Source: a bacterium
Lineage (GTDB): Bacteria; J088; JAWLBW01
Length of the DNA: 64,000 bases
Direction: 5' to 3'
Assembly (NCBI GenBank): GCA_041690355.1
Contig: JAWLHK010000002.1
Coordinates: 186,001-250,000 of the forward strand
Below are positions 1,952 to 60,900 of this stretch, piece after piece. The notes under the pieces are model-generated. The model was given only the letters and a program-made list of their open reading frames with translations. It was not told where the DNA came from and made no database searches. The position numbers were made by a program, and so were the translations under genes. Every line of letters begins with the position of its first letter. Position 1 is the first letter of the stretch.

Positions 1952-3301
1952 TCAGGATTCCTTGAGGCCGAACTGCTTCAGCTTGTTGTAGGCCGAGCTT
2001 CTGGAAATGCCGAGGATCTCGGCCGTAAGCTGCACGTTCTCACCGGTGTGGCGGAAGACGGAGGTAAAGTGCTCGCGCTCGATCTCGGCGAGCGTGGCCA
2101 GGCGCGGACCTTGGTGGGGTGACGTGACGGGGGGCGTCGCCGCCGAGGGAAGAACGAGGGCCTCCACGTCGACCACCGTCCCCTGCACGCGCAGGAGAGC
2201 GCGCTCGAGAACATTGCGAAGTTCACGGATGTTGCCCGGCCAGTCGTAGCGCTTCAACTTTTCCAGGGCCGCCGACGTGAGGGTGGGGGGCGAGCGGGAG
2301 AGGCCGGGTGCGAGCGCGGCTACGATCTTTTCGGCAAGAAACGGGATGTCCTCGGCCCGCTGCCGCAGCGGCGGCAGCGCGATGGGAAAGGCGCTGATCC
2401 GATAAAACAGGTCCTGCCGGAAGGCGCCCTCCGCCGCCCGTGTCTGGAGGGGATGGTGCGTGGCAAAGATGAGCCGTACATCGGCTACCTTTTCGCGAAC
2501 CGAGCCCAGGCGGCGGAACCGGCGATCTTCGATGACCTTGAGCAGTTTGGCCTGCACGCGAAGGTCGATATCGCCGATTTCGTCGAGAAAGAGAGTGCCG
2601 TGTTGGGCGACTTCGAGCAAGCCCGGTTTCGCGGCCACCGCCCCGGTGAAGGCGCCCTTCTCATGGCCGAAGAGTTCGCTCTCGAGAAACTCGGGCGTCA
2701 GGCCGGCGCAGTTCAGATCCACAAAGGGTTCTTCGCCGCGGCTGCTCTGCTCGTGCAGCCAGCGGGCGAGCACCCCTTTGCCGCTCCCGGTCTCGCCAAG
2801 CAGCAGGATCGGCCCCTGGCCCTGAAGGGCGCTCTCGGCTTCTACACGCAGCCGCTGCGAGGCCGGGCCCGGGCCCGCGAAGGGGTCCTGTTCGGCCGCG
2901 GGGCGGCTGCGCACGGCCGCGGCCTCCTTCTGCCGGCTGCGGCGCGCACTGTGCAGGCGATCGAGAATGGTGGCCAGAGAAGGGAGATCGACCGGCTTCG
3001 TCAGAAAGTGGTCTGCGCCGGCCTGCATGGCGCGCACGGCAAGGTCGACCGTCGCATGACCGGTCAGAATGATGAAGGGGATCGCTTCTTCGAGTGCGCG
3101 CACCCGTTCGAGGAGGCGCAGTGCGTCGCCGTCGGGCAAGGAGAAGTCCGAGACGATCCAGTGCGGCGGATTCGCTTCGAGCGATCGCAGCGCCGCCTCG
3201 ATCGTATCGGCCTCCTGCACGTCGATGTTGCGCCCTGCGAGAAATCGTCTGACACCGAAACGCACGGCGGCGTCGTCTTCAACCAGCAACAGAGAATTCA
3301 T
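1952..3301 (-). CDS. sigma54-dependent response regulator (NtrC family: REC-AAA+-HTH)
   Basis: MNSLLLVEDD REC, GETGSGKG Walker A, ESELFGHEKGAFTGA, LFLDEIG, WPGNIRELRN, C-terminal Fis-type HTH. Confidence 0.95.
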   Translation of the reverse strand: MNSLLLVEDDAAVRFGVRRFLAGRNIDVQEADTIEAALRSLEANPPHWIVSDFSLPDGDALRLLERVRALEEAIPFIILTGHATVDLAVRAMQAGADHFLTKPVDLPSLATILDRLHSARRSRQKEAAAVRSRPAAEQDPFAGPGPASQRLRVEAESALQGQGPILLLGETGSGKGVLARWLHEQSSRGEEPFVDLNCAGLTPEFLESELFGHEKGAFTGAVAAKPGLLEVAQHGTLFLDEIGDIDLRVQAKLLKVIEDRRFRRLGSVREKVADVRLIFATHHPLQTRAAEGAFRQDLFYRISAFPIALPPLRQRAEDIPFLAEKIVAALAPGLSRSPPTLTSAALEKLKRYDWPGNIRELRNVLERALLRVQGTVVDVEALVLPSAATPPVTSPHQGPRLATLAEIEREHFTSVFRHTGENVQLTAEILGISRSSAYNKLKQFGLKES

Positions 3302-21518: not shown

Positions 21519-23393
21519 TCAGGCGCGCGCCTTGCCTTCGGGGGCGCAGGCGAGAAGGGCCCAGGCGGTGGTAAGCACCGGGTGCCCCCAACAGGCCGGG
21601 AGGTAGTCCCGGTCGATGGAGACGAAAGCCGCTTCGCCGGGCCAGCTGCCATCGATCGTCTGCCGATCGAGCAGCCAGGCGGCAATCCGCTGACCGTCGA
21701 CAGGGAGCGACCAGCAGCGCGCCGCGAGGACGGCCGCTATGGTCTCGAGCACGCCGCCATAGCTGCCGTCGAGCCGTTCTTCGGCACGCAGTTCTGCTTC
21801 GAGCGTCTGGCAGACACTTTGGGCCGACGCCTCGTCGATGAATCCGTGACGCCGTGCCTGCGCGAGCACGCGATGCACGAACCAGCGCGTGAGCGGCGCG
21901 ACGTAGAAGGGGCCCTCGAATTCGCCGCGCTCGGCAACGCCGCACAGCCGTTTCCAGGCGCCGGGCGGAATGCGCTCGGCCTGGCCCTGCTCGAGCAGGC
22001 CCCAGATCGCATTGGCGGCGGTTCCGGGACAATCGTTCCCCTGCCAGACGATACCCTCGGGAGAGGGGCCCATCCAGGTGCGTACCCCCTCGTCGACAAG
22101 ATTGTCGAGCAGGAGAGCAGTGTCGGCTGCGCGGATTTCAGCCGCAAGCCGCGCCCCGAAGTAGCCGAGCACCAGTCCGGTATCGTCGGCGTCGGGAGGG
22201 ATGGTACGCTCGTGCGGGTAGTACCGCCAGCCATCGGGGTCGCGCAGGCGCTGCAGCTTCTCCCATTCGTCGTGTGCCGGGCGCCCCCACGCCTGCAATG
22301 CGGCGAGCCTGAAGATGGCCGGATACAGATCGGCGCGGACCCGCGGCTTCCCGAACAGCCCCCACCGGTGAACCTCGGCGGCCCCGGTCGCCTCCTCGAG
22401 ATACGCGAGGGCGCGCTCGACGCCATTCTCCGGGGTCAGGGCGGGAAGTGCGCGGGGACGGTCAAGCATACCGAGTGTCTCGCGTATCGTGGCCGCCGTA
22501 GCCAGAAACCAGGCGACGGCGGGTTCGAACCCCGAGGCCTCGGTAACGTCATCGATGAGCCGTGCCCAGGCCTCGCGCACGGAGAATTCTGCGTCCTGCA
22601 GGGCGATCATGGCCGATGCCGCCGCCTGAAAGCGCATCTCTGCCTGCACGTCGGGGCGCGAACGCAATCGGGAAGCGAGCAGCCTGAAGGGGCGCTTTCC
22701 GTATAGGGGAGCGAGAACGCGCGTCCACTTGCCCGCGATGAAGTCGCCCGAGCGCGGCTTCAGGTAAACGTCGAACACGTCGCTCAGGTCCTGGAGGGCG
22801 GCGCCGAAGCGCAGCCCGAATGCCTCGAACGGTCTGGTCGGACGGTCTGCCGCACGGGCGGCGACGGCGAAGAACAGCGCGAATTCGGCCCCGGCCTTGT
22901 CGAGGTGGATGGCGTCGGTGTCCGGCACCCGGGGACGATCGGTGGCGTCGAGGTCGCGGTTCTGGCCGCCGGCCATGATGAGGCCGAAGTGCAGGGCCGC
23001 CTCCAGGATCTCCGGGGTGATCGCGGCGGCTGCACGGTGGGCGAGCATGAGCAGGGCGCAAGCGTCGTTGGCGCGCGCGCCGGGCGCGTCGCCGTCGTCG
23101 ATGTCGTCGGCGACGTCGGCCGCGGCCCAGAGCAGGGTGCAGAAGATCCCGGCGGCATCGACCCGTTCCTGGGAAGCGCCCAGCGAGCGGGCCATGCGCA
23201 CCGCGAAGAGCGCGGGCGAGCCTCCGGTATGCCCGGGGGGCGTGAGAACGCGCTTTCGAAGTCGCGCGAGGAGCCCGGCCTCGACGGGGGCGCGTTGCAG
23301 ATGGGTCTCGACGGCGCTGTTCAACATGGACAGCAGCCCGGCTTCTTCGGTAAGCCAGCGTTCTTCATCATGAGCCGTCGTATGCATGTTCAT
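21519..23393 (-). CDS. Bifunctional ComQ-like (isoprenoid-synthase fold) prenyltransferase fused to a class II terpene cyclase beta-domain
   Basis: N-half: ADVADDIDDGD with no downstream RRG, GQNRDL, KAG, degenerate second motif LQDLSDVFD, SGDFIAGKWT. C-half: PPDADDTG (DXDD) and QW-like RDPDGW, RLDGSY, QTIDGSW. Alternative start 23387. Confidence 0.75.
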   Translation of the reverse strand: MNMHTTAHDEERWLTEEAGLLSMLNSAVETHLQRAPVEAGLLARLRKRVLTPPGHTGGSPALFAVRMARSLGASQERVDAAGIFCTLLWAAADVADDIDDGDAPGARANDACALLMLAHRAAAAITPEILEAALHFGLIMAGGQNRDLDATDRPRVPDTDAIHLDKAGAEFALFFAVAARAADRPTRPFEAFGLRFGAALQDLSDVFDVYLKPRSGDFIAGKWTRVLAPLYGKRPFRLLASRLRSRPDVQAEMRFQAAASAMIALQDAEFSVREAWARLIDDVTEASGFEPAVAWFLATAATIRETLGMLDRPRALPALTPENGVERALAYLEEATGAAEVHRWGLFGKPRVRADLYPAIFRLAALQAWGRPAHDEWEKLQRLRDPDGWRYYPHERTIPPDADDTGLVLGYFGARLAAEIRAADTALLLDNLVDEGVRTWMGPSPEGIVWQGNDCPGTAANAIWGLLEQGQAERIPPGAWKRLCGVAERGEFEGPFYVAPLTRWFVHRVLAQARRHGFIDEASAQSVCQTLEAELRAEERLDGSYGGVLETIAAVLAARCWSLPVDGQRIAAWLLDRQTIDGSWPGEAAFVSIDRDYLPACWGHPVLTTAWALLACAPEGKARA

Positions 23394-23407
23394 CCTGGAA
23401 GAAAAAG

Positions 23408-25477
23408 TCAGTGAAGCGAGCGACCGTGAGCATCCGACCGGGATGCCACGGCGTGCAGCTGCCGGCGCAGCTCTTCGAGCGCAATCGGCTTCTGCAGGAC
23501 ACGCACGCCGGGCGGGAGGTCGGCCAGTTCAGCCGTCCCCGGGGGGAGCGCGGTCAGAAACAGGAACCGCTCGCGCAGCGCATCCGGCGCGGCGCGTAAG
23601 AGTTCGGGGCCGGTGCCGTCACCGAGACGGATGTCGCAGAGTACGGCCGAAAACGGCTGTTTCAGATATGGGAGCGCCTCGTGAACCGAAGCGGCGGTCG
23701 TGACGGCGAAATCGCGCAGGACGTTGCGGAACAGGGTGAGGGTCCGCACCTCGTCGTCGACGATGAGAATCGGTCGCCGTTCCCGGGTTTCGATGTTCCC
23801 GGCCAGCGGCAGAGAAAGCGTGAAGGTGCTCCCCTCGTTTTCTTTCGAGTAGACCCGCAGCTGCCCGCCGTGTTCGGTGGCGATGTGGTAGCTCACGCTG
23901 AGCCCCAGGCCGGTACCGCTGCCGGGCGACTTCGTGGTGAAGAAGGGGTCGAAAATGCGCCGAAGCCGGTCGGCGGGAATTCCCGCGCCATTGTCCTCGA
24001 CCGAGAGCGTGCCGCTGATCTCGTCGGAGACCACGCGCACGATGATCCGATTCTCGTCGCGCGGACGCTCGGGAAGGGCCTGCCGCGCATTGATGAGCAG
24101 GTTGAGCAGCACCTGCACGATTTCGTCGGGTCGGCAGGAGACCATGACCGGTCGATCGGGAACTTCGACCTGCAGCTGGGTCAGGTGATGAAAATCCGCG
24201 GCGACGAGACGGTGTACGCGCTGTACGAGCTCGACGAGATCGACGGCCTCGAAAGTCCTTGACGGGGTCGGATGCGAAAGCCGCTTCAGCCCCTGGACGA
24301 TGCTGGCCACCTGGGCAAACCCGCTCTGAATGTCTTCGAGCGGCGACCGGTAGCTTTCTGGCAGGTCTTCGCGGGAAAGCAGATATTCGAGGTTGCCGGA
24401 GATGTACGTGAGCGGATTATTGATCTCGTGTGCGACCCCGGCAGACAGCGTACCCATGGCAACCATGCGATCGGCGAGCGCAAAGTGTTCCTGTAGCTCG
24501 CGGTTCTTGCGTTCGAACTCGACGCGATCCGTGGCGTCCTGGGCGAGAACGGCAAAGCGCCGCTCCTGATCGCGCAGGGGGAGCGGGACGATGCGGATGT
24601 CGAGGTATCGCTCCGACTCGGTGGCCGGCTGTCCATAAATGGAGGCGGGAACTCCGGTGGCCTCGATGCGTCGCAGCACCTCGTAAAGGTCGGCGATTTC
24701 GAGCGAGCCATCCTGGCGCCGCAGACCGGGGGCCTGCCCCGACTCCCGGTAGGTCAGGCAGAGGCCGTTGCGATCCATGACGTACAGGGCCGCCGTGGCC
24801 TGCTCGAGGGTCGACAGCCAGTCTTTTTCGACGTCGCGCAGACGCCGCTCGGCATCCAGATTCACGCGTGTAAGGTTGAGCTCGTGCTCCGACTTCATCG
24901 CGAGCTCCAGAAGTCCGATCTGCTTGACCCGTTCCGAGCCGAAGAATCCGGCCAGAACGACCGACAGCCCCGCGAGCGACCAGAGCATCGGTCGTTCACC
25001 GGCCACGGGCAGCTCGCTGTGGTATGCGAACGCGACCACGACCAGAATCGGGGCCGCGACCCCCGCCAGGACGCTCGGGTGGTTTCCCGCGCTCTGGGCC
25101 AGAAGAACGGCCATGAGGATGTAGAACGCCCCGAGATAGGTATGCCCGCCAGACGCGAGGGCAACCTCGATACACAGGCCGGCAAGGAAAATCTCGCTTT
25201 CGAGCCAGTTTGCGGCGCTGTAGGCCAGAGAGTCGAATCCATAGTGATCATATATCCATCGTGTGGTCGCCATGGCGATCGCGAAGACGCCGAACACAAA
25301 CAGGGTCGGTTCAGCGGGAAGCGGCAACCATCCGATTACCGCCAGCCCGGCCACGATGGCCAGGACGGCCACCCCCTGAAAGAAGAACGTTCGGCTTCTT
25401 CCGTGGGCGTGATAGGCCGGGTCGAGCGCCGGGGGGATGATTCTCGCGAGCTTCTTCGCAAAAGAGCCAGGATTCAT
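23408..25477 (-). CDS. Hybrid sensor histidine kinase (about 6 TM, PAS-like, HisKA, HATPase, REC)
   Basis: Hydrophobic N-terminal ~180 aa, [32 protein letters not shown]-terminal ILIVDDE...LCD...QKP. Confidence 0.92.
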
Positions 25478-25659
25478 TGAAATTCCCGCAGGGGTGCACA
25501 GACAAGAATTGTTACAGAAATCGACGAAAAGCGGGCCGAATGTTACGAACTGTAACGTAACGGCCAGCCGTCGTCACATTGCGGGAAGCTTTGCGGCGGG
25601 CCGACTAGCATGCGTTGGCAACCGGACATGATGTTCGGGGTTCTCTGAGGAGAGTTGCC

Positions 25660-25749
25660 ATGACGCTCAAGAAACTTGCCGCCGCCATTCTTGCCTCGAC
25701 CACCAACGCCCCCACCGCGCCGAACGATACCATCGCCTACTATCCCTGA
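25660..25749 (+). CDS. 29-aa peptide MTLKKLAAAILASTTNAPTAPNDTIAYYP, putative signal/RiPP precursor
   Basis: Below the ORF-track length cutoff. GAGGAG (25647-25652) 7 nt before ATG, almost all codons end in C/G, terminator follows the stop. Confidence 0.7.
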   Translation: MTLKKLAAAILASTTNAPTAPNDTIAYYP

Positions 25750-25757
25750 ACCAGACG

Positions 25758-25798
25758 GGGCCCGTCTGCCGCGACAAGGGCGACGGGCCCTGCTTTTT
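25758..25798 (+). terminator. Intrinsic terminator after the peptide gene
   Basis: GGGCCCGTC...GACGGGCCC stem followed by TGCTTTTT. Confidence 0.6.
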
Positions 25799-25860
25799 CG
25801 TCGGTTGACCCCGCCGGCGCAGTGCCTTTCGCGGTAATTCTCCGCCTTACCCCATTGGGC

Positions 25861-25889
25861 TTGCCAACGTTGCAACAGCTGACTATGCT
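25861..25889 (+). promoter_or_regulatory. sigma70-type promoter of the OmpR-family gene (leaderless geometry)
   Basis: TTGCCA-N17-TATGCT, 6 nt before the GTG at 25896. Confidence 0.6.
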
Positions 25890-25895
25890 AATGCC

Positions 25896-26615
25896 GTGCA
25901 GCGTTTTTACCCGGCCGGGGATCTCGGGCGACTCCTTCTCGTAGAGGATGATCCGCGAATCGTGCGGATGCTCGCTCGCTACTTCGGCGAGCGGGGCGTG
26001 CAGGTGCACGCGACCGACGACCCGGTCACCGTTTGCGCCTCCATCGAGGAGGCGCGGCCCGACCTCATCCTGCTCGACTGGGTGATGCCTGAGCGCAGCG
26101 GCCTCGACGTGCTCCGCGAGATCCGCCGCCATGCCCGCTTCGTCGATATTCCCGTCATCATGCTGACGGCCCGCGCCGAAGAACTCGACCGGGTCGAGGG
26201 CCTGCTTACCGGCGCCGACGACTATGTCGTCAAACCCTTCAGCCTGGCCGAACTCGACGCGCGCATCGTCAGCGTCATGCGCCGGTATCGCCGCCGCGCT
26301 CTCCCGTACCGGGATGAGTATCTCGAAATCGATGTCGACCGCAAACGGCTCGTGTCGGGCGGGACACCGCGTACCCTGAGCGCTCAGGAGTGGGGTCTGC
26401 TCGAACTCCTCCTGCGCAGCGACGGCGTGGTTACCCGGCAGCAGATCGTCGATACGGTCTGGGGGCCGGGATTCGCCGTCACGCCGCGGGCGGTCGACGT
26501 CATGGTGGCCCGGCTGCGCCGCGCCATGGAGCCCGAGCCCGAATTCCCCCGCTATCTGCTGACCGAGCGCGGCACGGGGTACCGCTTCTGCCGCCGGCGC
26601 GATCGGCTGGACTGA
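25896..26615 (+). CDS. OmpR/PhoB-family DNA-binding response regulator
   Basis: LLVEDD...LLDWVMP...MLTAR...GADDYVVKPF; wHTH RAVDVMVARLRR...TERGTGY. Confidence 0.92.
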   Translation: MQRFYPAGDLGRLLLVEDDPRIVRMLARYFGERGVQVHATDDPVTVCASIEEARPDLILLDWVMPERSGLDVLREIRRHARFVDIPVIMLTARAEELDRVEGLLTGADDYVVKPFSLAELDARIVSVMRRYRRRALPYRDEYLEIDVDRKRLVSGGTPRTLSAQEWGLLELLLRSDGVVTRQQIVDTVWGPGFAVTPRAVDVMVARLRRAMEPEPEFPRYLLTERGTGYRFCRRRDRLD

Positions 26616-26642: not shown

Positions 26643-27965
26643 ATGATGCGCCTGTCCGGATGCCTTCTGTCCGCCTGCCTCCTCCTCTCCTGCAGTTCGC
26701 CCGTTCCGCCTCCGGCAGACCGGGAGAACGACGTGAAGCCGGTTTCCGTGGCCGAACGTCTCGCGGCCCGTTACGGCATCGAACCGCTCGATTATGCCCG
26801 CGAAGAGTACTGGGGGTGCGGGATCACGCCCGGCGCAGACGCCTGCGCGCTCGACGCACAGGTGGCACGGCTCGTGACCGACGGCACGGTGCGCCTGACC
26901 GCGTTGCCGACCCTCGAGCAACCGCCGGTCGACTGTTTCTACATCTACCCCACGGTCGCGCCCGATCCGTCCGTCGACGAACACGGCGCCTTTCGCAGCG
27001 TCGAGCAGCCGCGGCTTGTCATGCAGCTGCAGGCGGCCTGGTTCGGACGCGTCTGCCGCGTGTTCGCCCCCTTTTACCGGCAGGCGACGATCGATCGCTA
27101 CCTGAAGCACGATGAGGAGTCGAAGGAGATCTTCCGCACTGCCTTTGTGGATGTGGCGGCCGCCTTCGAACACTTTCTGGCCGCGTGGAACGGGAACCGG
27201 CCGCTCGTGATCCTGGGGCACAGCCAGGGGGCGCAGATGGCCTCCTATCTGCTGCATCTCTACTTCGACGGCGCCACCACGGTCACGCGCGTCGCGGGGA
27301 GCCATACGAGCGACGCCCTGCGCCGCCGGCTTCTCGTGGCCATGCCCATCGGGTTTCACGTCTTCGTACCCGCGGGAGAACCGGTCGGCGGCTCCTTCTC
27401 GCACCTGCCGCTGTGCGAGCAGGATGCCGATCGGGGGTGCGTCATCAGCTACCGGAGCTATGCCGATGGCGAGCCCTACCATACGGCCTGGGCGACCGGA
27501 TGGATCGATGAGCAGCTGGCCGCCGAAGGGCTCCTCTACCGGACCTACGAGAAACAGTCCGATCGCCTCGCGTGCGTCAATCCTGCGCGACTCGCCCTCG
27601 ACGCTGCGAACGGGGCATTGGCGCTGGACACCGAGGGAAATGCGGCGCCCGCGGGGGCCCGTGTGCTGGATGGATCGATGATTCCCGAAGCGATGAGCAA
27701 CGTCGCCGGCCGGTTTCCCGAGGCCAAGGGGTTCTGGCTCGAGACGCCCGGCCGTTACACCGCCGCCTGCCGCGAAGACGAGAACGGAGAGCAGTATCTC
27801 GGCATCGGGTTCCACCAGCCGGCCACGACCGCCTGGCCCGGCGGAGACCTGCGGGGCGACCCGCTGGCCGCCGGGCTGCCGACCTCTGCGCTGGGTCTGC
27901 ACCTCATCGATTTCAATCACGCCCTCGGCGACCTGATCGATCACGTGCGCGTTCGGATCCCCTGA
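26643..27965 (+). CDS. DUF3089-type alpha/beta-hydrolase lipoprotein
   Basis: Lipobox LLSC, DCFYIYPT, VFAPFYRQA, nucleophile elbow GHSQG, C-terminal LH..D. Confidence 0.8.
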   Translation: MMRLSGCLLSACLLLSCSSPVPPPADRENDVKPVSVAERLAARYGIEPLDYAREEYWGCGITPGADACALDAQVARLVTDGTVRLTALPTLEQPPVDCFYIYPTVAPDPSVDEHGAFRSVEQPRLVMQLQAAWFGRVCRVFAPFYRQATIDRYLKHDEESKEIFRTAFVDVAAAFEHFLAAWNGNRPLVILGHSQGAQMASYLLHLYFDGATTVTRVAGSHTSDALRRRLLVAMPIGFHVFVPAGEPVGGSFSHLPLCEQDADRGCVISYRSYADGEPYHTAWATGWIDEQLAAEGLLYRTYEKQSDRLACVNPARLALDAANGALALDTEGNAAPAGARVLDGSMIPEAMSNVAGRFPEAKGFWLETPGRYTAACREDENGEQYLGIGFHQPATTAWPGGDLRGDPLAAGLPTSALGLHLIDFNHALGDLIDHVRVRIP

Positions 27966-54975: not shown

Positions 54976-57900
54976 TTATTCCTGGATCACCTGTGACGGT
55001 CCGTGGGTTCCCGCGAAGTCGTAGAGCAACTTCAACTTCTGCGTGCCGCTCGTGTTGTCTACGTAGGTCGCGAACAGGCGGCCGTTACGGTCGACGGCAA
55101 GGGCGGGATGGTTGCCGATGTCGTTCGTGCTCGCATCCAGAACGACTTTGGCCCAGTACCCCGGGCGGTTGGTCACATACCAGAGGTCGTCGGAGCTGTC
55201 GTTGTAGTGAACGACGTGTACCTTGCCGTCTGCGTCGGCCTGAATGGCCGACTTCTGGCCGGCCTTGGTGCCGGTGTCGATGGTCGACCGCGACCACGTG
55301 CCGTCGCTCGCGCGGCTGGCATAGCGCAGCAGCGTATCGGTCGAGTCGTAATGGGCGATGTGTACCGTCCCTTCCGGCGTAACGGCGAGGCTGGCACGGT
55401 AGCCGAGATTCTTGTTCGACAGGCTTTGGCCGGTTTCCACCGTCCACGTCGTACCCTCCAGCATCGCCAGCTCGAGCGTCGCTTTGCCGTTGGCATTCAT
55501 CCCCCGGTAGGTAACGTAGAGCTTCCCGTTTCCGTCGATGCGGATGCCGGTGCGCTGCACGTAGCTCCCTTCGTCGGCGACATCGACGGTATCCACGTCA
55601 GAACGCGCCCAGAAGCCGTCCTTGTTCGTGACATACCGGATGGCGTCGTTGCCGCTGCCGTCTTCGAAGTAGTAGACGGCGTGCACTTTTCCGCCCGCAT
55701 CGACCGCCACGGATGCGCCGATGCCCGAATCGTCGACCGATTCACGGGTCTCGACCGTCCAGGCTCCGAACGTGCCCGTGGCGTAGCGCAGGTCGTTGTT
55801 GTCGTCGTCGTAGTAGAACATGTGCACGGTGCCGTCGCCGGCCACGCCGATGGAAGGCCACTCCACATCGACAACCGTATCGACCAGTTCCGATCGCCAG
55901 AGGCCGTCGGGACGGTTGGTCGCGTACTTGAGCTCTCCGGTGTTGCCCCCGCCGTCGCGGAAGGCGATGTGGAGAAACCCGAGCGAATCGACCGCCACCG
56001 CCGTGTCGTCGACGGAGGTTGCCGCCGTCAGGTCGAGCTTGTGCGTGCTGTACTCACGCCAGCGGCTGAGTACCAGATCGCCCTCGACGGCATCGTAATG
56101 GGTCGCGAACAGGGCGCCCGTGGTGTCGACGGCCAGCGAGGCGAACAAGCCCACCGAAGGCCGGTCGTCGAGCGTGCGCACGACCCAGCTGCCCGAAGTA
56201 TTCGTGGCGTAGCCGAGCCCCGCCGACCCGTTCAGGTAGGCAACGTGAACCCCGGTGGCGCTCAAGGCGAGCGAGGCATAGGCGCCCACGTCGGCTCCGC
56301 CGGTCGTCGTGATCGTCGTCAGCGTCCAGGCGCCGGGCGAGCCGCTCGCGTACTTGAGCTGGTCGGCGGCGCCGTTCTCCTTGAAATAGGCGATGTGCAC
56401 CGTGCCGGCCGCGTCGACGGCCAGTGAGTTGAACTGACCGCTGTCTCCCGTGTCTACGGTGCTCGGCGCCGAAAAGGCCGCCGACCCGGTGACGTGCGTC
56501 GCGTAGCGGAGCTCTTTCGCCCAGACGTTGTGCCAGGTGACGTGCACGGTTCCGTTCCGGTCGACGGCAATGCCGGTCGTCGCGTCGGTAACCGGCTGCA
56601 CGGCGCCGACGTGGTCGATGCGGATGGGGCTGCCCCAGACGTCGTTAATCCTCGCGACGTAACGCGTCTCGGCCGTGACGCCGTAGGCGTTGTAGAAGCT
56701 GATGTAAACGTTCTGCCAGCGGTCGACCGCGATGGACGACCAGCGACCGGCATCGGTGGCCGCATCGGCAAAGGCGGTTTCCGAAACCCATCCGCCATCC
56801 TTGTTCGTGGCGTATTTGAGCGCGCCGTTGGTCTGATCGTAGTAGGCAATGTGGGCGTTGCCGTACATGTCGACGGCAACCGAGCCGTACTGCCCCACGT
56901 CGCCGGCCGAATCGACCAGCGAGGCATCCCACGCGCCGGTGACATTGCTCATGTAGCGCAGGTCGCCCGCGGTCGCATCGTAGTAGGCGATGTGGATGCC
57001 GCCATGCGGATCGAGAGCGACGGCACTGTCGGCGCCGACGTCGTTCAGCGGATCGAGCGTCAGGTTGTCGTTGATTTCGAGCGGGAACCGGGAACGGTAG
57101 TTCAGAACGGAGCCTTCATTCGAAACGCGTACGTCAATCGACTCGTCGATCCAGACCGTGCCGACGGTACGGTCCCAGCTCGTGCTGCCCGCGAGCTGAT
57201 TGCTGAACGGGCTGCCGGTCGGGTACGGCTCGCCGTTGTGATAGGCCTGCGTGAGCGTTACGCCGGCACCCTGTTGCCCATATTCGTAGTGGTAGTTCGT
57301 GGCGTTGCGTACCCAGGTCAACCGCTCTGCCGGCCGGATCGGCGTGATGCTGAGCGTGTCGGAAACCGTGGAGGCATTGCCCAGGTCGTCATAGGCCTGC
57401 AGCTGATAACGATGGACGAGGCCGAAGTAGGCCTCGTCGGTCGTATCGCGCCAGGTCGTCGGGCAGGGGCAGACCGTGTCGACAAGCGTCAGGAACGCAC
57501 CATCGACCCCATCGACCTGGCGGCGAAGCACGATGCGCTCGAGATCGGCGGCCGCGGGAACGGTGAGGGCCAGCTCGATATCCTGATCCTTCATTTTGTA
57601 ACCGTCGCCGTCCATGTCGGCGAGGGCGATCGACGGTTTTCCCGGCGGGGTCTGGTCGAGCGTCACACTTGCGCTGACCGCCGCGGCGATTTCGTTGCCT
57701 GCCGCGTCGCGGGCGCGCGCATAGAGTGTTTTCACTCCGTCACCCGCGGCAAGGGCCCACCCGACGAGCGAAGTTGCGGGGAACCAGGTGGCGCCGCTGA
57801 ACGTGCTGCTCGTGCTGAGCTGAAGCTCGGCCACGTCGGTCGTTGCGTTGACGAAGGTCACGTCGACGTTGAGCGCGGCCGTGCGGCCGGCGAAAACGCT

Positions 57901-60900
57901 GGCGCCGGTGATATCGATGGCGAATCCCGGCGACCAGAACTGGCTGTCGACCGTGATGTCGTCATGTACGCATGTCGAGACGTTGCCGGCCGCGTCCTGG
58001 AATTCCGCATAGACCCGGCGGAGCCCCTGCGTCGTTCCCAGATCGAGCGTGGCGCTCGTATCGTAGGCAACCCACGACCCGATGGCGCAGCCCGCCTGCG
58101 AAAAACGCATCTGCACGGCGTTGCCCCCCGCCGAGAAGGTGGCCACGACCGAGGCCGGCGCATTGGTCGCCGTCGCGCCGCCGTTCAGTACGATGGAGAC
58201 CGGCGTCGGCGCGAGCGTGTCGACCTCGACGGTCGAGAACGTATCGATCGCGTGCCCCGCATTGTCGAGCAGGCGCACGTATACAAACCGGATGCCGTCG
58301 CCCGGTGCGAGTGTCCACGCGGTGACCGCAGGACTGTACGGGATGGGGGCCTGCGCAAATGTGCCGTCGTTGCTGATCTGCATCCAGGCGGCGCCGGAGC
58401 CGAAAATCTGCAGGTCGACCTGGTTCGTGGTTGCGTAGGTTGCGCCTCCGTTGAGCGTCACGGCCGGAGTCTGGGTGAAGACCGGCGGCTGGGTATCAAG
58501 GGTGATCGAATCCCAGTATTCGCCGGTCACGTTGCCCGCTGAATCGCGGAAGCGCACCCCGACGCTGCGCACCCCGTCACCCGGGCCACTGGGCAGGGCG
58601 ACATCGAGAAAGGTGCGATACGATTCCCAGGCAGACCCCGAAAAGGTTCCGTCGAAGCCGATGATCATTTCCGTCGCGCCCGTGACCGACATGGCCAGGC
58701 TCACCAGGCTGCTGATCGTGTGCGTCGCTCCGTTTTCGACCAGGATGCCGCCCGCGTATGCTTCGGGAGCCTTGAAGTCGTAAAGAATCGAGTCGCTGAC
58801 CGGTGTGCTCCAGTTACCGGCCCGGTCGCTGAAGGTTGCGCAAACGAACTGCTCGGCCTCGACGCCTGCGCCATACTGCTCGAGCTGCCAGCTCAGCGAC
58901 GCGCCGAATGCATACTCCTGCCAGGCAAGTCCGCCCGTGTTGCACGAGGGGGCCGCGCCCAGGTTGGCGATGCGCATGCGGTCGAGCCCGCTGATGGTAT
59001 CCTGCCCGTCGATGGACAGGAGCACGTTTCCGAGCGGGTCCTTGGTCAGCGCCGGGCTTGTCCGGTTGATGATGAAGCTGGTAATCGACGGGGCGGCGCG
59101 GTCGAGGACGATGCTCGTCGACGCGGCGTCGGTTTCGTTGTTGGCCTCGTCATAGAATTTCACCGCAACCGTACGCGTGCCGTCGACGGCGTCGAGCGTC
59201 CACGGATACGTAGAGGCATAGGCAAGGTACGGCTCGGTGTCGAAGGCGCCGTCGTTCGAGATACGCATGCGCAGGGCGGTGGCGTCGCTTGCAGAGAGGG
59301 TCAGGCCCACCGAGGTGCTGGTCGTGAACGCGGCCCCCGAGTTGATGGCAATGGCGGGGCTGCCGAGCGCGGGCTTGGTGCCGTCGTAGTTGATGGCATC
59401 GGAATAGATGCCGGTTTCGTTGCCCGCCGGATCGCGGAACTTCAGATAGACTGTCGCCGTCAGACCACCCGTGTTGATGACGTGGGGGAACGAAGACTGG
59501 TACGTCAGCCACTGGGCGTTCGTGAAGAACGCATCATTCGCCACGAGCATCTGGCTGGCGCCGGAGACGTCGAGGGTCATCGTCACCTGTCCGCTGTTCG
59601 TATAGGCGGCGCCGCCATTGATGAGCGGTGTGGCGTTCGCGACGGGCGCCATCGTGTCGTACTGGATGGTGTCGGTGACGGGCGTGCTCCAGTTGCCGAG
59701 CCTGTCCTGGAAGCGGGCGCAGACGACGCGCAGCCCCTCCTGGTTCGCCCCCGTCGGCGCTGCGAGCGGCCAGGCCCCGACACCGCCGGCCGTGAACGAG
59801 AGCGTCGTTCCGGTGTTCAGCGTCGTCTCGTCGCAGGGGCTCCCCGCGTTGACGTTGACGAGCTGCGCCGCCTCCACCGACGTCGACAGGTCGAGAACGG
59901 TCCAGTTCAAGGGCACCGAACCGGAGAGGGCGCGCGTATGGTCCTTACCTCCGTCGATCGTGAAGTTGGTTACGACCGGCGGCGTGGAATCCAGCAGTAC
60001 CGACGCCTGCACGGCCTGCGAATAGTTGCCGAGGCTGTCCTGAAAGCGGGCATACAGGTTCTTGACGCCGTCGCCGCTCGAGAGCGTGTAGGGGAAGTAG
60101 TTGGCGACACCCGGAGACACGGGCAGCGTGGTCGGATTGAAGAAATTCAGGTTGTTCGCAATCTGGACGTTGACCGCGTTGTCGGCCGACACGACGACGG
60201 TGATGTTCGGCGAAGCCGTCTCGGTGGCCGTAATGCTGAGGTTGGGGTTCGTGGGCCCCGCCGTCTTGATGCGCACGGTAATGGGTCCTACCGTCAGCGT
60301 GTTGCCGGCCGCGTCGAGAATCCGGGCCCAGGTCTGGCGATCTTCGCCTTCGGCGTTCGTGGGGGCGGGCACGTACCAGAGCCGGCGTCCGCTGTAGGCA
60401 TACTCTTCGGTTGCCGAGGCAAGAAACGATTCGGACGAGCTGTACTGGACGAAGAGCGGGTTTGCGTCGGTGACCTTGAGATACAGGTAATAGTACAGGT
60501 TGTTGGTCTGCGTGATCGTGGCGCCCCCCTGATCCTGGGCCTCGAACGCAGACTCGAGAACGGGCTGGGAGCGGTCGAGTGTGATAGGACGCGGGGTGGC
60601 GCTCGTGACGTTGCCGGCCGCGTCGCGCAGCTGAACGTAGACGGTGTAGTCGCCGTCAACGCCGGCAAGCGTCAGGTTGCGCACGGGCGTGAACGGCTGC
60701 CAGGTCGCGTCGCTGAAATCGGACAGCTGGCTGATGCGCATCTGCATGACGTCGCTCGCCAACACCTGAAGCGAGAGATTTTCGTTGTTGATGTACTGCT
60801 GGCTGGCCACGAAACCGCCCCCCTGAATCTGGACGTACGGCGCGGGTGGCGGGGTCTTGTCCAGCACGAGATTCAGCGAGCGGACGAGAGACAGGTTGCC

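What the first reader, a model, noticed from the sequence alone, without database searches (positions are those of the whole stretch)
21519..23393. Fused ComQ-type prenyltransferase and single-domain class II terpene cyclase
Seen: first Asp-rich motif ADVADDIDDGD (~23088-23117) with no RRG after it, GQxxDL, KAG, a degenerate second motif (QDLSDVFD) and SGDFIAGKWT. The C-half has PPDADDTG (22182-22193) and three QW-like DGxW/Y repeats. Known: chain-elongating trans-prenyl synthases keep RRG and a second DDxxD, whereas ComQ-type aromatic prenyltransferases lose them; DXDD is the general acid of squalene-hopene and class II diterpene cyclases. Inference: the enzyme transfers a prenyl chain to an aromatic acceptor and then cyclises it. 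From memory, fused prenyltransferase-cyclase RiPP maturases have been reported (please verify), but not to my knowledge in a sensor-kinase cassette.
Basis: partly seen in the sequence, partly recalled or inferred. Interest (0 to 1): 0.8.

Follow-up and report, generated by a model that had tools for sequence, protein, structure and literature searches.

The report
Peptide prenyltransferase-cyclase beside a sensor kinase
The gene encodes a two-part enzyme that probably attaches a terpene chain to a tiny neighbouring peptide and folds it into rings, and it sits with a membrane sensor kinase and a regulator, like a Bacillus pheromone system in an almost unstudied bacterial phylum.

Summary
Window 21519-23393(-) is one 624-aa ORF with every motif named. 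An AlphaFold model (pLDDT 95.2, pTM 0.92) gives an isoprenyl-diphosphate-synthase (IDS) helical domain joined to a single (alpha/alpha)6 barrel. It matches polyprenyl synthases and the monodomain class II cyclases 8pak/8paj and MstE.

The N domain keeps DDxxD, Lys166 and Lys222. It lacks the IPP-site residues (GGKRxRP, RRG) and has a ComQ-like pseudo-SARM, SDxxD. Asp403 aligns with the general acid of squalene-hopene cyclase and drimenol synthase.

A histidine kinase lies next to, or one gene from, the fusion gene in 10 of 10 loci with enough flank, down to about 30% enzyme identity.

I found an unannotated 29-codon ORF (25660-25749, +) between kinase and regulator, with a Shine-Dalgarno site and a terminator-like hairpin. 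The only close relative has a counterpart. A complex model places its N-half on the enzyme: 0.64 against 0.01 for the best control.

Fused prenyltransferase-cyclase RiPP maturases are published (ChrPC, NctPC), so the enzyme type is known. New here are the Trp-less peptide and the ComQXPA-like two-component cassette. Earlier notes of this scan report similar cassettes on other DNA (CPR bacteria, Myxococcota). No chemistry is shown.

The parts
21519..23393 (-). Fusion gene, 624 aa. P domain = residues 1-307 (window 22473-23393). Linker = 308-320. C domain = 321-624 (window 21522-22433, followed by the stop).
   Evidence: ORF. Model with pLDDT 95.2, pTM 0.92 and helix map. Foldseek matches: E. 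coli octaprenyl-PP synthase 3wjk (TMt 0.78), monodomain cyclases 8pak (0.66) and MstE 6sbb (0.63).
23094..23108 (-). First Asp-rich motif DDIDD (residues 96-100): the prenyl-diphosphate/Mg2+ site.
   Evidence: Position. D96, D97 and D100 are invariant in 6 of 6 close relatives. They are D in 44, 41 and 41 of 57 rows of A2. The motif aligns with the DDxxD of solved polyprenyl synthases.
22770..22784 (-). Pseudo-SARM SDVFD (residues 204-208), with Gln201 one helical turn before it.
   Evidence: At position 204, Ser occurs in 29 and Thr in 11 of 57 rows, and Asp is not among the five commonest residues. StheQ, a ComQ homologue, has the same Q-x-x-N-D-x-x-D spacing (Q212, N215, D216, D219; passages).
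22182..22193 (-). DADD (residues 401-404). Asp403 is the predicted general acid of the class II cyclase domain.
   Evidence: The profile alignment puts it on SHC YPDVDDTA and on the DLDT of drimenol synthase. The second Asp of that motif reads Asn in the chain deposited as 'AsDMS D333N mutant'. D401 is D in 52 and D403 in 53 of 57 rows.
21642..21662 (-). QW motif QTIDGSW (residues 578-584).
   Evidence: Position. Q578, D581 and G582 occur in 52, 54 and 55 of 57 rows. The motif aligns with the last QW repeat of SHC.
23408..25477 (-). Hybrid histidine kinase, 689 aa: hydrophobic N-terminal ~190 residues, a middle region, HisKA, HATPase_c and a weak receiver domain. Its stop lies 14 nt before the fusion gene's start.
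   Evidence: Pfam. N-terminal sequence and hydropathy. The strict 19-residue window called 2 segments. Reading about 6 hydrophobic stretches is my own reading of the printed sequence.
25660..25749 (+). Unannotated small ORF, 29 codons plus stop: MTLKKLAAAILASTTNAPTAPNDTIAYYP. It is the candidate precursor peptide. GAGGAGAG lies at 25647-25654, 5 nt before the ATG.
   Evidence: Sequence. GC3 is 22 of 28 codons (my count) against 0.59 GC for the intergenic region. It is single copy in the genome. L002 has a 28-codon ORF in the same place and orientation, with GGAGG upstream. Complex model: 0.64 against 0.01 for the best control. No Pfam-independent family: NCBIfam gave no hit.
25752..25800 (+). 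Two hairpins after the small ORF. The second (25777-25791) is followed by a T-run and is terminator-like.
   Evidence: Terminator scan: (1 found; shuffles gave a mean of 0.7, so weak on its own). The first hairpin, CAGACGG-GGC-CCGTCTG at 25752-25768, I read. L002 has an 11-pair hairpin plus T7 after its small ORF.
25896..26615 (+). OmpR-type response regulator, 239 aa, divergent from the kinase and on the same strand as the small ORF.
   Evidence: Pfam Response_reg 2.3e-27 and Trans_reg_C 1.9e-18. It is 56% identical to the regulator in the same position in L002.

Best explanation
The 624-aa protein is a bifunctional 'P-C' peptide maturase.

Step 1. The N-terminal IDS-fold domain binds an allylic prenyl diphosphate through DDIDD/Mg2+, Lys166 and Lys222. 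The donor is probably FPP or GGPP made by the genome's two ordinary polyprenyl synthases. The domain has lost the residues that hold IPP, so it does not elongate chains. Instead it transfers the prenyl cation to an acceptor, in the manner of ComQ.

Step 2. The acceptor is most likely the C-terminal part of the 29-aa peptide encoded at 25660-25749. Tyr27, Tyr28 or Thr24 are candidates; there is no Trp. The peptide's N-terminal half acts as a leader that docks next to the pseudo-SARM helix and the interdomain linker.

Step 3. The C-terminal single-barrel class II cyclase protonates the distal double bond with Asp403 and cyclises the attached chain.

Step 4. The product, after trimming and export by unknown means, is the signal read by the polytopic histidine kinase co-transcribed with the enzyme. 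The kinase passes it to the divergently encoded OmpR-type regulator. This gives ComQXPA-like logic.

Shown: the fold, the motifs, the synteny and the existence of the small ORF. Supported by modelling: peptide binding. Inferred: every chemical step, the acceptor residue, the donor length and the signalling role.
For: Fold and homology:
- Model pLDDT 95.2, pTM 0.92, with Foldseek matches to both domain types.
- Profile matches: polyprenyl synthases E 9e-18, MstE E 2e-11 over the whole barrel, drimenol synthase E 2e-27, SHC E 1e-23.

Non-elongating signature:
- Where solved synthases have GGKRxRP and RRG(R)P, the family profile has neither.
- The genome's own two synthases carry GGKRLRP/GGKRARP, RRGRP and DDLLD. 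The fusion has GGSPALF, no RRG and SDVFD.
- ComQ-type enzymes are described as FARM plus pseudo-SARM.

Precedent: ChrPC, a trans-IDS-like P domain fused to an MstE-like cyclase, prenylates a peptide Trp and then cyclises the chain (review passages).

Peptide:
- SD site, GC3 22 of 28, hairpins, and the same unit in L002.
- Complex score 0.64 (runs 0.63, 0.67, 0.64) against 0.01 for the best of 3 controls. Partner pLDDT is at least 54 and at least 71% of contacts are shared between runs. In the tool's calibration this mark was reached by 58 of 80 solved complexes and 2 of 110 mismatched pairs.
- Peptide residues 2-16 touch enzyme residues 10, 14, 210-211, 251-255 and 298-313.

Family context:
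- In 8 of 14 other loci, 36-45-aa peptides ending PRTVTL[YF] lie beside the fusion gene, up to three copies per locus.
- A kinase is adjacent in 8, and a HATPase_c protein lies within one gene in 2, of the 10 loci with at least 1.5 kb of flank. The kinase start overlaps the fusion stop by 4 nt in 5 loci.
Against: - No chemistry was or could be tested.
- The window peptide and the L002 peptide are not detectably homologous to each other or to the PRTVTL[YF] family. The family HMM does not find them, and tblastn with the window peptide finds nothing but itself. Only two loci of this subclade exist to compare.
- The complex job lies outside its calibration: the partner has 29 residues, was folded without an alignment, and has a hydrophobic N-half that might dock unspecifically.
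- All characterised trans-IDS-like peptide prenyltransferases target Trp (review). None of these peptides has Trp, and some end in Phe, a poor nucleophile.
- The N-half of the window peptide also looks like a Sec signal peptide (my reading).
- By profile the C domain is nearer to the FPP-cyclising drimenyl/drimenol synthases (E 2e-27, 1e-22) than to MstE (E 7e-13).
- The sensor domains of the window/L002 kinases are not detectably related to those of the Myxococcota loci (hhalign probability 2.7%).
- Two earlier notes of this scan on similar cassettes were later marked 'part of it fell'. The part is not stated.
Confidence: 0.5

Rival explanations
1. Free-terpenoid synthase. The barrel cyclises FPP or GGPP by protonation to a bicyclic diphosphate, as drimenyl or copalyl diphosphate synthases do. 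The IDS-like domain then ionises that diphosphate (class I chemistry), or passes the cyclic unit to a small non-peptide acceptor. The hydrophobic product is the membrane signal or lipid that the polytopic kinase senses. The small ORF is unrelated or regulatory.
For: The C-domain profile is closest to the drimenol and drimenyl-PP synthases, which act on FPP itself (E 2e-27 and 1e-22). The kinases beside the gene have membrane-embedded sensor parts with short loops, which suits a lipid ligand. Three Myxococcota loci add two SPFH/Band_7 genes, a family linked to membrane microdomains (the link is recalled). The peptide evidence in this subclade rests on two loci.
Against: The N domain has IDS-type motifs with a ComQ-like pseudo-SARM, not the NSE/DTE second motif of class I cyclases (the NSE/DTE rule is recalled). 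Conserved, multi-copy small peptides sit beside the gene in 8 of 14 other loci. The complex model favours peptide binding. The published fused P-C enzymes act on peptides.
Confidence: 0.25
2. Meroterpenoid route, as for MstE. The N domain prenylates a small aromatic metabolite such as a hydroxybenzoate, and the barrel cyclises the prenyl-arene.
For: MstE, a monodomain cyclase, acts on geranylgeranyl dihydroxybenzoate (PDB title 6sbg; PMC12324236 passages). The barrel aligns with MstE end to end.
Against: No aromatic-acid biosynthesis gene or UbiA-type gene lies in the cassette. The conserved partners are peptides and kinases. The complex model supports peptide binding.
Confidence: 0.1
3. Assembly-line terpene synthase of the PvCPS kind. 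The N domain elongates DMAPP and IPP to GGPP, and the barrel cyclises the GGPP.
For: Pfam and PDB name the N domain a polyprenyl synthase. A prenyltransferase fused to a class II cyclase is known in fungi (PvCPS; abstract of PMC12393454 in the listing; PDB 8v0f).
Against: The IPP-site residues (Lys/Arg of GGKRxRP, RRG) are absent from the whole family. The first SARM Asp is Ser or Thr. The genome has two complete ordinary synthases. The N domain scores below Pfam's cut-off.
Confidence: 0.05
4. The small ORF is a Sec-exported unmodified peptide, or is not a gene at all. The enzyme's conserved partner is the kinase itself, as a modified protein or a stoichiometric complex.
For: The N-half of the peptide (KK, then LAAAILA) resembles a signal peptide (my reading). 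Five loci couple the fusion and kinase genes by a 4-nt overlap. The terminator scan is barely above its shuffles (1 found against a mean of 0.7).
Against: The L002 counterpart is not hydrophobic, so it is not a signal peptide. The complex model binds exactly that N-half to the enzyme, with controls at 0.00-0.01. Peptides recur across the family.
Confidence: 0.07

Closest known systems
ChrPC (and NctPC), the fused prenyltransferase-terpene cyclase RiPP maturases of Hubrich et al., Chem 2024. I know them only through passages of the review PMC13290415.
   Same: One chain carries a prenyltransferase domain and an MstE-like monodomain class II cyclase. In ChrPC the P domain is trans-IDS-like, as here. 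The proposed order is the same: prenyl transfer to a ribosomal peptide, then cyclisation of the chain.
   Different: ChrPC and NctPC modify Trp, and the candidate peptides here have none. The review passages I saw mention no linked histidine kinase or regulator. Direct sequence relatedness to ChrPC could not be tested because no sequence was at hand. The host here belongs to a phylum with only 5 species genomes in the collection searched.
Bacillus ComQXPA quorum-sensing cassette (ComQ, ComX, ComP, ComA)
   Same: The four parts are an IDS-fold non-elongating prenyltransferase with FARM plus pseudo-SARM, a short peptide with an aromatic residue 2-4 positions from its C-terminus, a polytopic histidine kinase and a response regulator. 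All lie within 5.1 kb.
   Different: Here the enzyme has an added cyclase domain. The peptide carries Tyr, not Trp. Gene order and strands differ: peptide and regulator on one strand, kinase and enzyme on the other. The regulator is OmpR-type, whereas ComA is NarL/LuxR-type (recalled). The kinase is a hybrid with a weak receiver domain. A 2014 census found comQXPA-like loci only in Firmicutes (abstract of PMC4008528).
MstE and the 345-aa myxobacterial monodomain cyclases (PDB 6sbb, 8pak, 8paj)
   Same: A single beta-type (alpha/alpha)6 barrel without a gamma domain. TM-scores normalised to the target are 0.62-0.66. The profile alignment covers the whole barrel. The acid motif is at the same place.
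   Different: Those proteins stand alone, while here the barrel is fused behind a prenyltransferase. MstE uses DxD (PMC12324236 passage), while this protein has the full DADD. I found no paper for 8pak/8paj.
Drimenol synthase AsDMS and drimenyl diphosphate synthase SsDMS
   Same: They are the best profile matches of the C domain (E 2e-27 and 1e-22). The catalytic Asp is aligned. AsDMS also has a single barrel fused to a second catalytic domain.
   Different: Their substrate is free FPP. The fusion partner of AsDMS is a HAD phosphatase, and SsDMS has two barrels. No peptide or kinase context is described for them.
PvCPS and fungal prenyltransferase-cyclase assembly-line synthases
   Same: An IDS-fold domain and a class II cyclase in one chain.
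   Different: The PvCPS prenyltransferase is a true GGPP synthase and its cyclase is beta-gamma. Here the IPP site is missing and the cyclase is beta only.

Membership tests
Trans-IDS-like peptide prenyltransferases (ComQ / PalQ / ChrPC P-domain type) | IDS all-helical fold | tested here: met
   Model. Foldseek TMt 0.70-0.78 to polyprenyl synthases. Profile E 9e-18.
Trans-IDS-like peptide prenyltransferases (ComQ / PalQ / ChrPC P-domain type) | FARM DDxxD kept; SARM degenerate (pseudo-SARM), with a Gln one turn before it | tested here: met
   DDIDD 96-100 and Q201-x-x-S204-D205-x-x-D208. Family counts. Feature as described.
Trans-IDS-like peptide prenyltransferases (ComQ / PalQ / ChrPC P-domain type) | Adjacent short precursor peptide whose Trp is the acceptor | tested here: not met
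   A 29-aa ORF is adjacent, but it has no Trp; it has Tyr27 and Tyr28. The same holds for L002 and for the PRTVTL[YF] peptides.
Trans-IDS-like peptide prenyltransferases (ComQ / PalQ / ChrPC P-domain type) | Match to a ComQ family model (InterPro IPR033965) | not tested
   No such model is in the libraries offered. NCBIfam listed no ComQ-named family at E up to 0.1.
Trans-IDS-like peptide prenyltransferases (ComQ / PalQ / ChrPC P-domain type) | Prenyl transfer to a peptide without chain elongation | not testable with these tools
   Needs an enzyme assay.
Chain-elongating trans-isoprenyl diphosphate synthases (PF00348) | Pfam gathering score | tested here: not met
   15.6 bits against a cut-off of 27. 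36 of 57 relatives match at E up to 0.01, the best at 6e-17.
Chain-elongating trans-isoprenyl diphosphate synthases (PF00348) | IPP-site residues (GGKRxRP; RRG after FARM) and a full DDxxD SARM | tested here: not met
   Alignment to solved synthases. Comparison with the genome's own two synthases, and column counts.
Class II terpene cyclases, beta-monodomain type (MstE-like) | Single (alpha/alpha)6 barrel, no gamma domain | tested here: met
   Twelve helices between residues 321 and 616. Matches to 8pak, 8paj and 6sbb.
Class II terpene cyclases, beta-monodomain type (MstE-like) | DxD(D) general acid at the homologous position | tested here: met
   D401-A-D403-D404 aligns with SHC DVDD and AsDMS DLDT. 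Conserved in 52-53 of 57 rows.
Class II terpene cyclases, beta-monodomain type (MstE-like) | Significant sequence relatedness to characterised members | tested here: met
   By profile only: E 2e-27 to 7e-13. The single sequence finds none of them and is below the cut-off of PF13243.
Fused P-C RiPP maturases (ChrPC type) | Prenyltransferase and cyclase domains in one polypeptide | tested here: met
   42 of 127 relatives carry both domains by HMMs built from A1.
Fused P-C RiPP maturases (ChrPC type) | Sequence homology to ChrPC itself | not testable with these tools
   The paper is not held, and no ChrPC sequence was available.
Fused P-C RiPP maturases (ChrPC type) | Binds and modifies a neighbouring precursor peptide | tested here: inconclusive
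   The complex model scores 0.64 against 0.01 for the best control, but the partner is under 30 residues and so outside the calibration. Modification was not tested.
ComQXPA-type peptide quorum-sensing cassette | Prenyltransferase, small peptide, polytopic histidine kinase and response regulator encoded together | tested here: met
   All lie within window 21519-26615. The same four parts occur in L002.
ComQXPA-type peptide quorum-sensing cassette | Co-directional Q-X-P-A order | tested here: not met
   Two divergent units.
ComQXPA-type peptide quorum-sensing cassette | The secreted modified peptide activates the kinase | not testable with these tools
   Needs genetics or biochemistry.

The most novel reading that the evidence does not exclude
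This would be a peptide-pheromone system outside the Firmicutes, in a barely sampled phylum and, in a second form, in Myxococcota. The signal would be a short ribosomal peptide carrying a cyclised terpenoid on a residue other than Trp (Tyr or Thr). One P-C enzyme would make it, and a membrane-embedded histidine kinase that has co-evolved with the enzyme would read it. That would extend trans-IDS-type peptide prenylation beyond Trp and give polycyclic-isoprenoid RiPPs a signalling role.
Probability: 0.3. Interest if true: 0.85.

Novelty: new variant of a known kind. Interest (0 to 1): 0.62.

Why it matters
Fused prenyltransferase-cyclase maturases were described only in 2024. In the passages I could read they are treated as natural-product enzymes acting on Trp.

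If this cassette works as proposed, it gives that chemistry a physiological role: a self-made, self-sensed lipopeptide signal. It would widen the acceptor range of IDS-fold peptide prenyltransferases beyond Trp. It would also put ComX-like signalling into Gram-negative-type lineages, where a 2014 census found no comQXPA-like locus.

The system is small (one enzyme, one 29-aa peptide, one kinase, one regulator), so it is directly testable in E. coli.

Earlier notes of this scan describe similar cassettes in CPR bacteria and Myxococcota. This may therefore be a widespread signalling module that has been overlooked because the peptide genes are not annotated.

Tried and rejected
- Single-sequence PDB searches gave only a marginal hit for the whole protein (3uca, E 0.021) and nothing relevant for the C domain. 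Profiles were needed.
- Rfam found no RNA family in the window.
- The search for related loci with the 57-row alignment failed for lack of a conserved stretch. The 6-row alignment worked.
- The metagenome scan returned only distant relatives, so the window subclade still has just one comparator, L002 (= G001).
- The HMM of the PRTVTL[YF] peptides does not find the window or L002 small ORFs.
- No NCBIfam family matches any of the peptides. The unknown neighbour genes L004 4568-5185 and L007 7304-7912 had no match, and L007 9924-10436 had only a chance-level one (E 0.81).
- The sensor domains of the window/L002 kinases show no detectable homology to those of the Myxococcota loci.
- The ESM Atlas gave only unnamed clusters and squalene-cyclase-repeat clusters. 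It had no structure search for this protein.
- Sequencing runs: none was listed and no RNA holder was listed. Expression is therefore untested and read laying was not used.
- Hubrich et al. 2024 could not be read by PMC id or DOI, and supplements are closed. Whether that paper already lists kinase-linked or Trp-less clusters is unknown to me.
- These searches found no paper describing such a cassette: 'ComQ + Myxococc + histidine kinase + prenyl' gave 0 papers. The terms gave 1 irrelevant paper. '8PAK/8PAJ' gave 2 irrelevant papers.
- A minus-strand 28-codon ORF with a Trp just upstream of the kinase (about 25543-25629) was set aside. It has no Shine-Dalgarno site and no counterpart in L002.
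- L010's 95-aa ORF resembles the end of L007's 170-aa ORF only by eye. BLAST found nothing.
Full report
**1. The observation**

Window 21519-23393 (minus strand) is a single 624-aa ORF.
- ADVADDIDDGD at residues 92-102, with DDIDD at 96-100.
- No RRG anywhere.
- GQNRDL 143-148, KAG 166-168, QDLSDVFD 201-208, SGDFIAGKWT 215-224.
- PPDADDTG at 399-406, with DADD exactly at window 22182-22193.
- One full QW motif (QTIDGSW, 578-584), plus DGSY (542-545) and DGW (387-389).

The sequence on its own is below curated cut-offs for both halves: polyprenyl_synt 15.6 bits against 27, and SQHop_cyclase_C 13.9 against 26.1. NCBIfam gave only marginal matches, and phmmer against PDB gave one weak hit.

**2. 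Relatives**

The word-indexed search of 5.8 billion proteins found only five relatives of similar length, at 31-44% identity. The exhaustive search of 1.84 billion cluster representatives found 125 proteins at E up to 1e-3, 19 of them below 1e-30.

I built HMMs from the six closest sequences and scanned 127 relatives:
- 42 carry both domains.
- 34 carry only the N-type domain; most are 227-376 aa and are probably ordinary synthases.
- 50 carry only the C-type domain.
- 1 matches neither HMM.

Of the 50 C-only proteins, 21 are 521-710 aa long, with the barrel at the C-terminal end in 19 of them. For 10 of 10 of these that I scanned, the N-part has no Pfam match.

Among the 57 full-length relatives aligned as A2, 36 match polyprenyl_synt (best 6e-17) and 3 match SQHop_cyclase_C at E up to 0.01. 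One carries methyltransferase domains.

**3. Structure**

AlphaFold2 with A2 gave mean pLDDT 95.2 and pTM 0.92. The model has an all-helical N domain (helices between residues 10 and 307), a short linker, and twelve helices between 321 and 616.

Foldseek against PDB matched both halves:
- N half: E. coli octaprenyl diphosphate synthase (TMt 0.78) and FPP synthase (0.71).
- C half: the 345-aa single-barrel cyclases 8pak and 8paj (0.64-0.66), MstE (0.62-0.63) and the drimenyl/drimenol synthases.

Profiles agree with this:
- A2 matches polyprenyl synthases at E 9e-18 and MstE at E 2e-11 over the whole barrel.
- A profile of the C domain plus stand-alone relatives matches drimenol synthase (2e-27), SHC (1e-23), SsDMS (1e-22), 8pak (1e-19), a 'prenylcyclase' 6ij1 (2e-16) and MstE (7e-13).

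**4. Active sites**

In the profile alignment the family's 'ippDaDd' lies on SHC 'YPDVDDTA' and on AsDMS 'DDLDTT'. The second Asp of the AsDMS motif reads Asn in the chain whose entry is titled 'AsDMS D333N mutant'. Asp403 is therefore the predicted general acid. D401 and D403 are conserved in 52 and 53 of 57 rows.

In the N domain, the alignment to solved synthases shows three differences:
- The family has nothing in place of GGKRxRP.
- It has nothing in place of RRG(R)P after the first Asp-rich motif.
- It has [S/T]DxxD where synthases have DDxxD.

It does keep DDxxD, the Lys of 'KT' (K166) and the Lys of 'GK' (K222).

The same genome encodes two ordinary synthases with all of these motifs intact. 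That gives an internal comparison and a likely source of FPP or GGPP.

From established knowledge of trans-IDS enzymes (recalled), the missing residues hold IPP, and the retained ones hold the allylic diphosphate and Mg2+. I infer a prenyl-transferring, non-elongating domain.

This is the pattern described for ComQ-type enzymes. One paper states that ComQ has the FARM and lacks the SARM (PMC10853753, passages). A preprint describes StheQ with FARM DDXXD, pseudo-SARM NDXXX and Q212 one turn before it (10.64898/2026.08.29.745113, passages). The spacing Q201-x-x-S204-D205-x-x-D208 here is the same.

**5. Context in the window**

- The fusion gene follows a 689-aa hybrid histidine kinase after a 14-nt gap. 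The kinase has a hydrophobic N-terminal ~190 residues, then HisKA, HATPase_c and a weak receiver domain.
- Divergent from the kinase lie an OmpR-type regulator and a DUF3089 hydrolase-like lipoprotein.
- Downstream of the fusion are a Transgly_assoc gene and the sigma-70 gene, on the other strand.

**6. Context elsewhere**

Eight genome loci came back: six labelled Myxococcales, Myxococcota, Polyangiales or Myxococcaceae, one Bradymonadia and one unclassified 'bacterium' (L002). Six metagenome loci came back as well.

Ten loci, counting the window, have at least 1.5 kb of flank on the relevant side:
- In eight, a HisKA/HATPase_c kinase is directly adjacent: window, L002, L003, L004, L005, L008, L009, L012.
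- In two (L007, L010), a HATPase_c protein lies within one gene.

In L003, L004, L005, L008 and L009 the kinase start overlaps the fusion stop by 4 nt. In L002 the called ORFs overlap by 29 nt (TTG start at 3165). The fusion's true start there may be the next ATG, a few nt before the kinase's stop.

The enzymes in these loci are 28-82% identical to one another, so the linkage is old. The loci are kin, however, and fall into about four or five clades, so the count overstates independence.

The window's genome belongs to a phylum with five species genomes in the collection. Two of the five carry the gene: the window's genome and G001, which holds L002.

**7. Small peptides**

Next to the fusion gene in L003 (3 copies), L004, L005, L008 (2), L009, L011, L012 (cut by the contig end) and L014 (3) there are ORFs of 36-45 codons. 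They have a basic helical N-part and an almost invariant end, PRTVTL[Y/F] plus 1-2 residues. No NCBIfam family matches them. This looks like a multi-copy RiPP precursor family without Trp.

That family's HMM does not find anything in the window or in L002. Both of those loci instead hold a small transcription unit between kinase and regulator, on the regulator's strand:
- Window: GAGGAGAG, 5 nt, then an ATG at 25660, 29 codons (MTLKKLAAAILASTTNAPTAPNDTIAYYP), a stop, and two hairpins. The second hairpin has a T-run.
- L002: GGAGG, an ATG, 28 codons ending ...LYSTP, and an 11-pair hairpin with T7.

GC3 is 22 of 28 codons in the window ORF and 19 of 27 in L002, against 0.59 GC for the window's intergenic region (the window count is mine).

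The two peptides share only a 'LKK[LI]' start and an aromatic residue 2-4 positions before a C-terminal Pro. With two loci this is suggestive, not proof.

**8. Binding model**

Complex prediction was run with the six-row enzyme alignment and the 29-aa peptide:
- Scores 0.63, 0.67 and 0.64, median 0.64, against 0.01 for the best of three controls.
- Partner pLDDT at least 54, and at least 71% of contacts shared between runs.
- In the tool's calibration this mark was reached by 58 of 80 solved complexes and 2 of 110 mismatched pairs. The tool warns that a partner under 30 residues and my own alignment lie outside that calibration.
- Peptide residues 2-16 contact enzyme residues 10, 14, 210-211 (just after the pseudo-SARM), 251-255 and 298-313 (last helix of the P domain and the linker).

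This leaves residues 17-29 free, as a leader-core arrangement would need. The model supports binding; it does not show it.

**9. What is known**

The review PMC13290415 (passages) states the following:
- NctPC is an ABBA-type prenyltransferase fused to an MstE-like cyclase. It puts geranylgeranyl on Trp and cyclises it.
- The P domain of ChrPC is trans-IDS-like and modifies an internal Trp with C10-C20 donors, after which the C domain cyclises the prenyl group.
[quoted passage not shown]'

The source, Hubrich et al., Chem 10:3224 (2024), is not held, and supplements are closed. I therefore cannot say whether kinase-linked or Trp-less clusters are already catalogued there.

A 2014 census found comQXPA-like loci in 'none outside the phylum Firmicutes' (abstract of PMC4008528). 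My searches found no paper on such a cassette in Myxococcota or beyond.

**10. Earlier notes of this scan**

I looked these up after I had formed my reading. They report the same kind of cassette in CPR/Patescibacteria with Trp peptides (for example e1-549433, e1-1573284, e1-1055642). One note reports it in Myxococcota with a Trp-less peptide (e1-4575317); that matches the loci I call L004, L005 and L009.

They are unchecked AI notes, and two are marked 'part of it fell' without saying which part. They agree with my reading but are not independent evidence. The Atlas look-alikes in Saccharimonadota and Minisyncoccota fit that picture.

**11. Verdict**

- The enzyme type (P-C maturase with an IDS-like P domain) is published, so it is not categorically new.
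- This locus adds a candidate precursor without Trp, a conserved partnership with a polytopic kinase and a regulator in ComQXPA-like logic, and a host from a nearly unsampled phylum.
- The main rival is a free-terpenoid enzyme whose product the kinase senses. It is favoured by the C domain's closeness to FPP-cyclising drimenyl synthases and by the thin peptide evidence in this subclade.
- None of the chemistry is shown.

Noticed in passing
L004 4568-7316; L005 2375-5192; L009 4704-7503: In three Myxococcota/Bradymonadia loci, two SPFH/Band_7 genes and an unknown 205-227-aa gene lie directly upstream of the peptide, fusion, kinase and hybrid-kinase genes. This hints at a link to membrane microdomains.
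   Followed up: partly
L007 9936-10433; L006 10027-10290; L010 7846-8133: L006 and L007 share a Lys/Ala-rich ORF right after the fusion gene (32 aligned residues, 47% identity, E 7e-5 in a small database). L010 has a 95-aa ORF with a Trp near its C-end in the same place, with no significant similarity. These may be other kinds of substrate.
   Followed up: partly
Proteins P0041-P0122: 21 relatives of 521-710 aa carry the cyclase barrel (at the C-terminal end in 19) together with a further region that has no Pfam match (10 of 10 scanned). They may be P-C fusions with other prenyltransferase folds.
   Followed up: partly
Alignment A2: One of the 57 relatives carries SAM-methyltransferase domains (Methyltransf_11, E 2.4e-25) together with the barrel.
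   Followed up: no
window 26643-27965 (+): A DUF3089 (alpha/beta-hydrolase-like) protein with a lipoprotein-type signal sequence starts 27 nt after the response regulator. It could belong to the same unit, for example in signal processing or turnover. L002's contig ends before this position, so conservation is unknown.
   Followed up: no
whole genome G000 and its phylum: The genome (4.64 Mb, 42 contigs) belongs to a phylum with only 5 species genomes in the collection searched. Two of the five carry the fusion gene.
   Followed up: partly
PDB 8pak, 8paj: The best structural matches of the barrel are 345-aa 'squalene-hopene cyclases' from Cystobacter fuscus and Archangium gephyra. They are single-barrel proteins from myxobacteria. 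I found no paper for them in the library.
   Followed up: partly
window 54976-62751 (-): A 2591-aa ORF. It was not examined.
   Followed up: no
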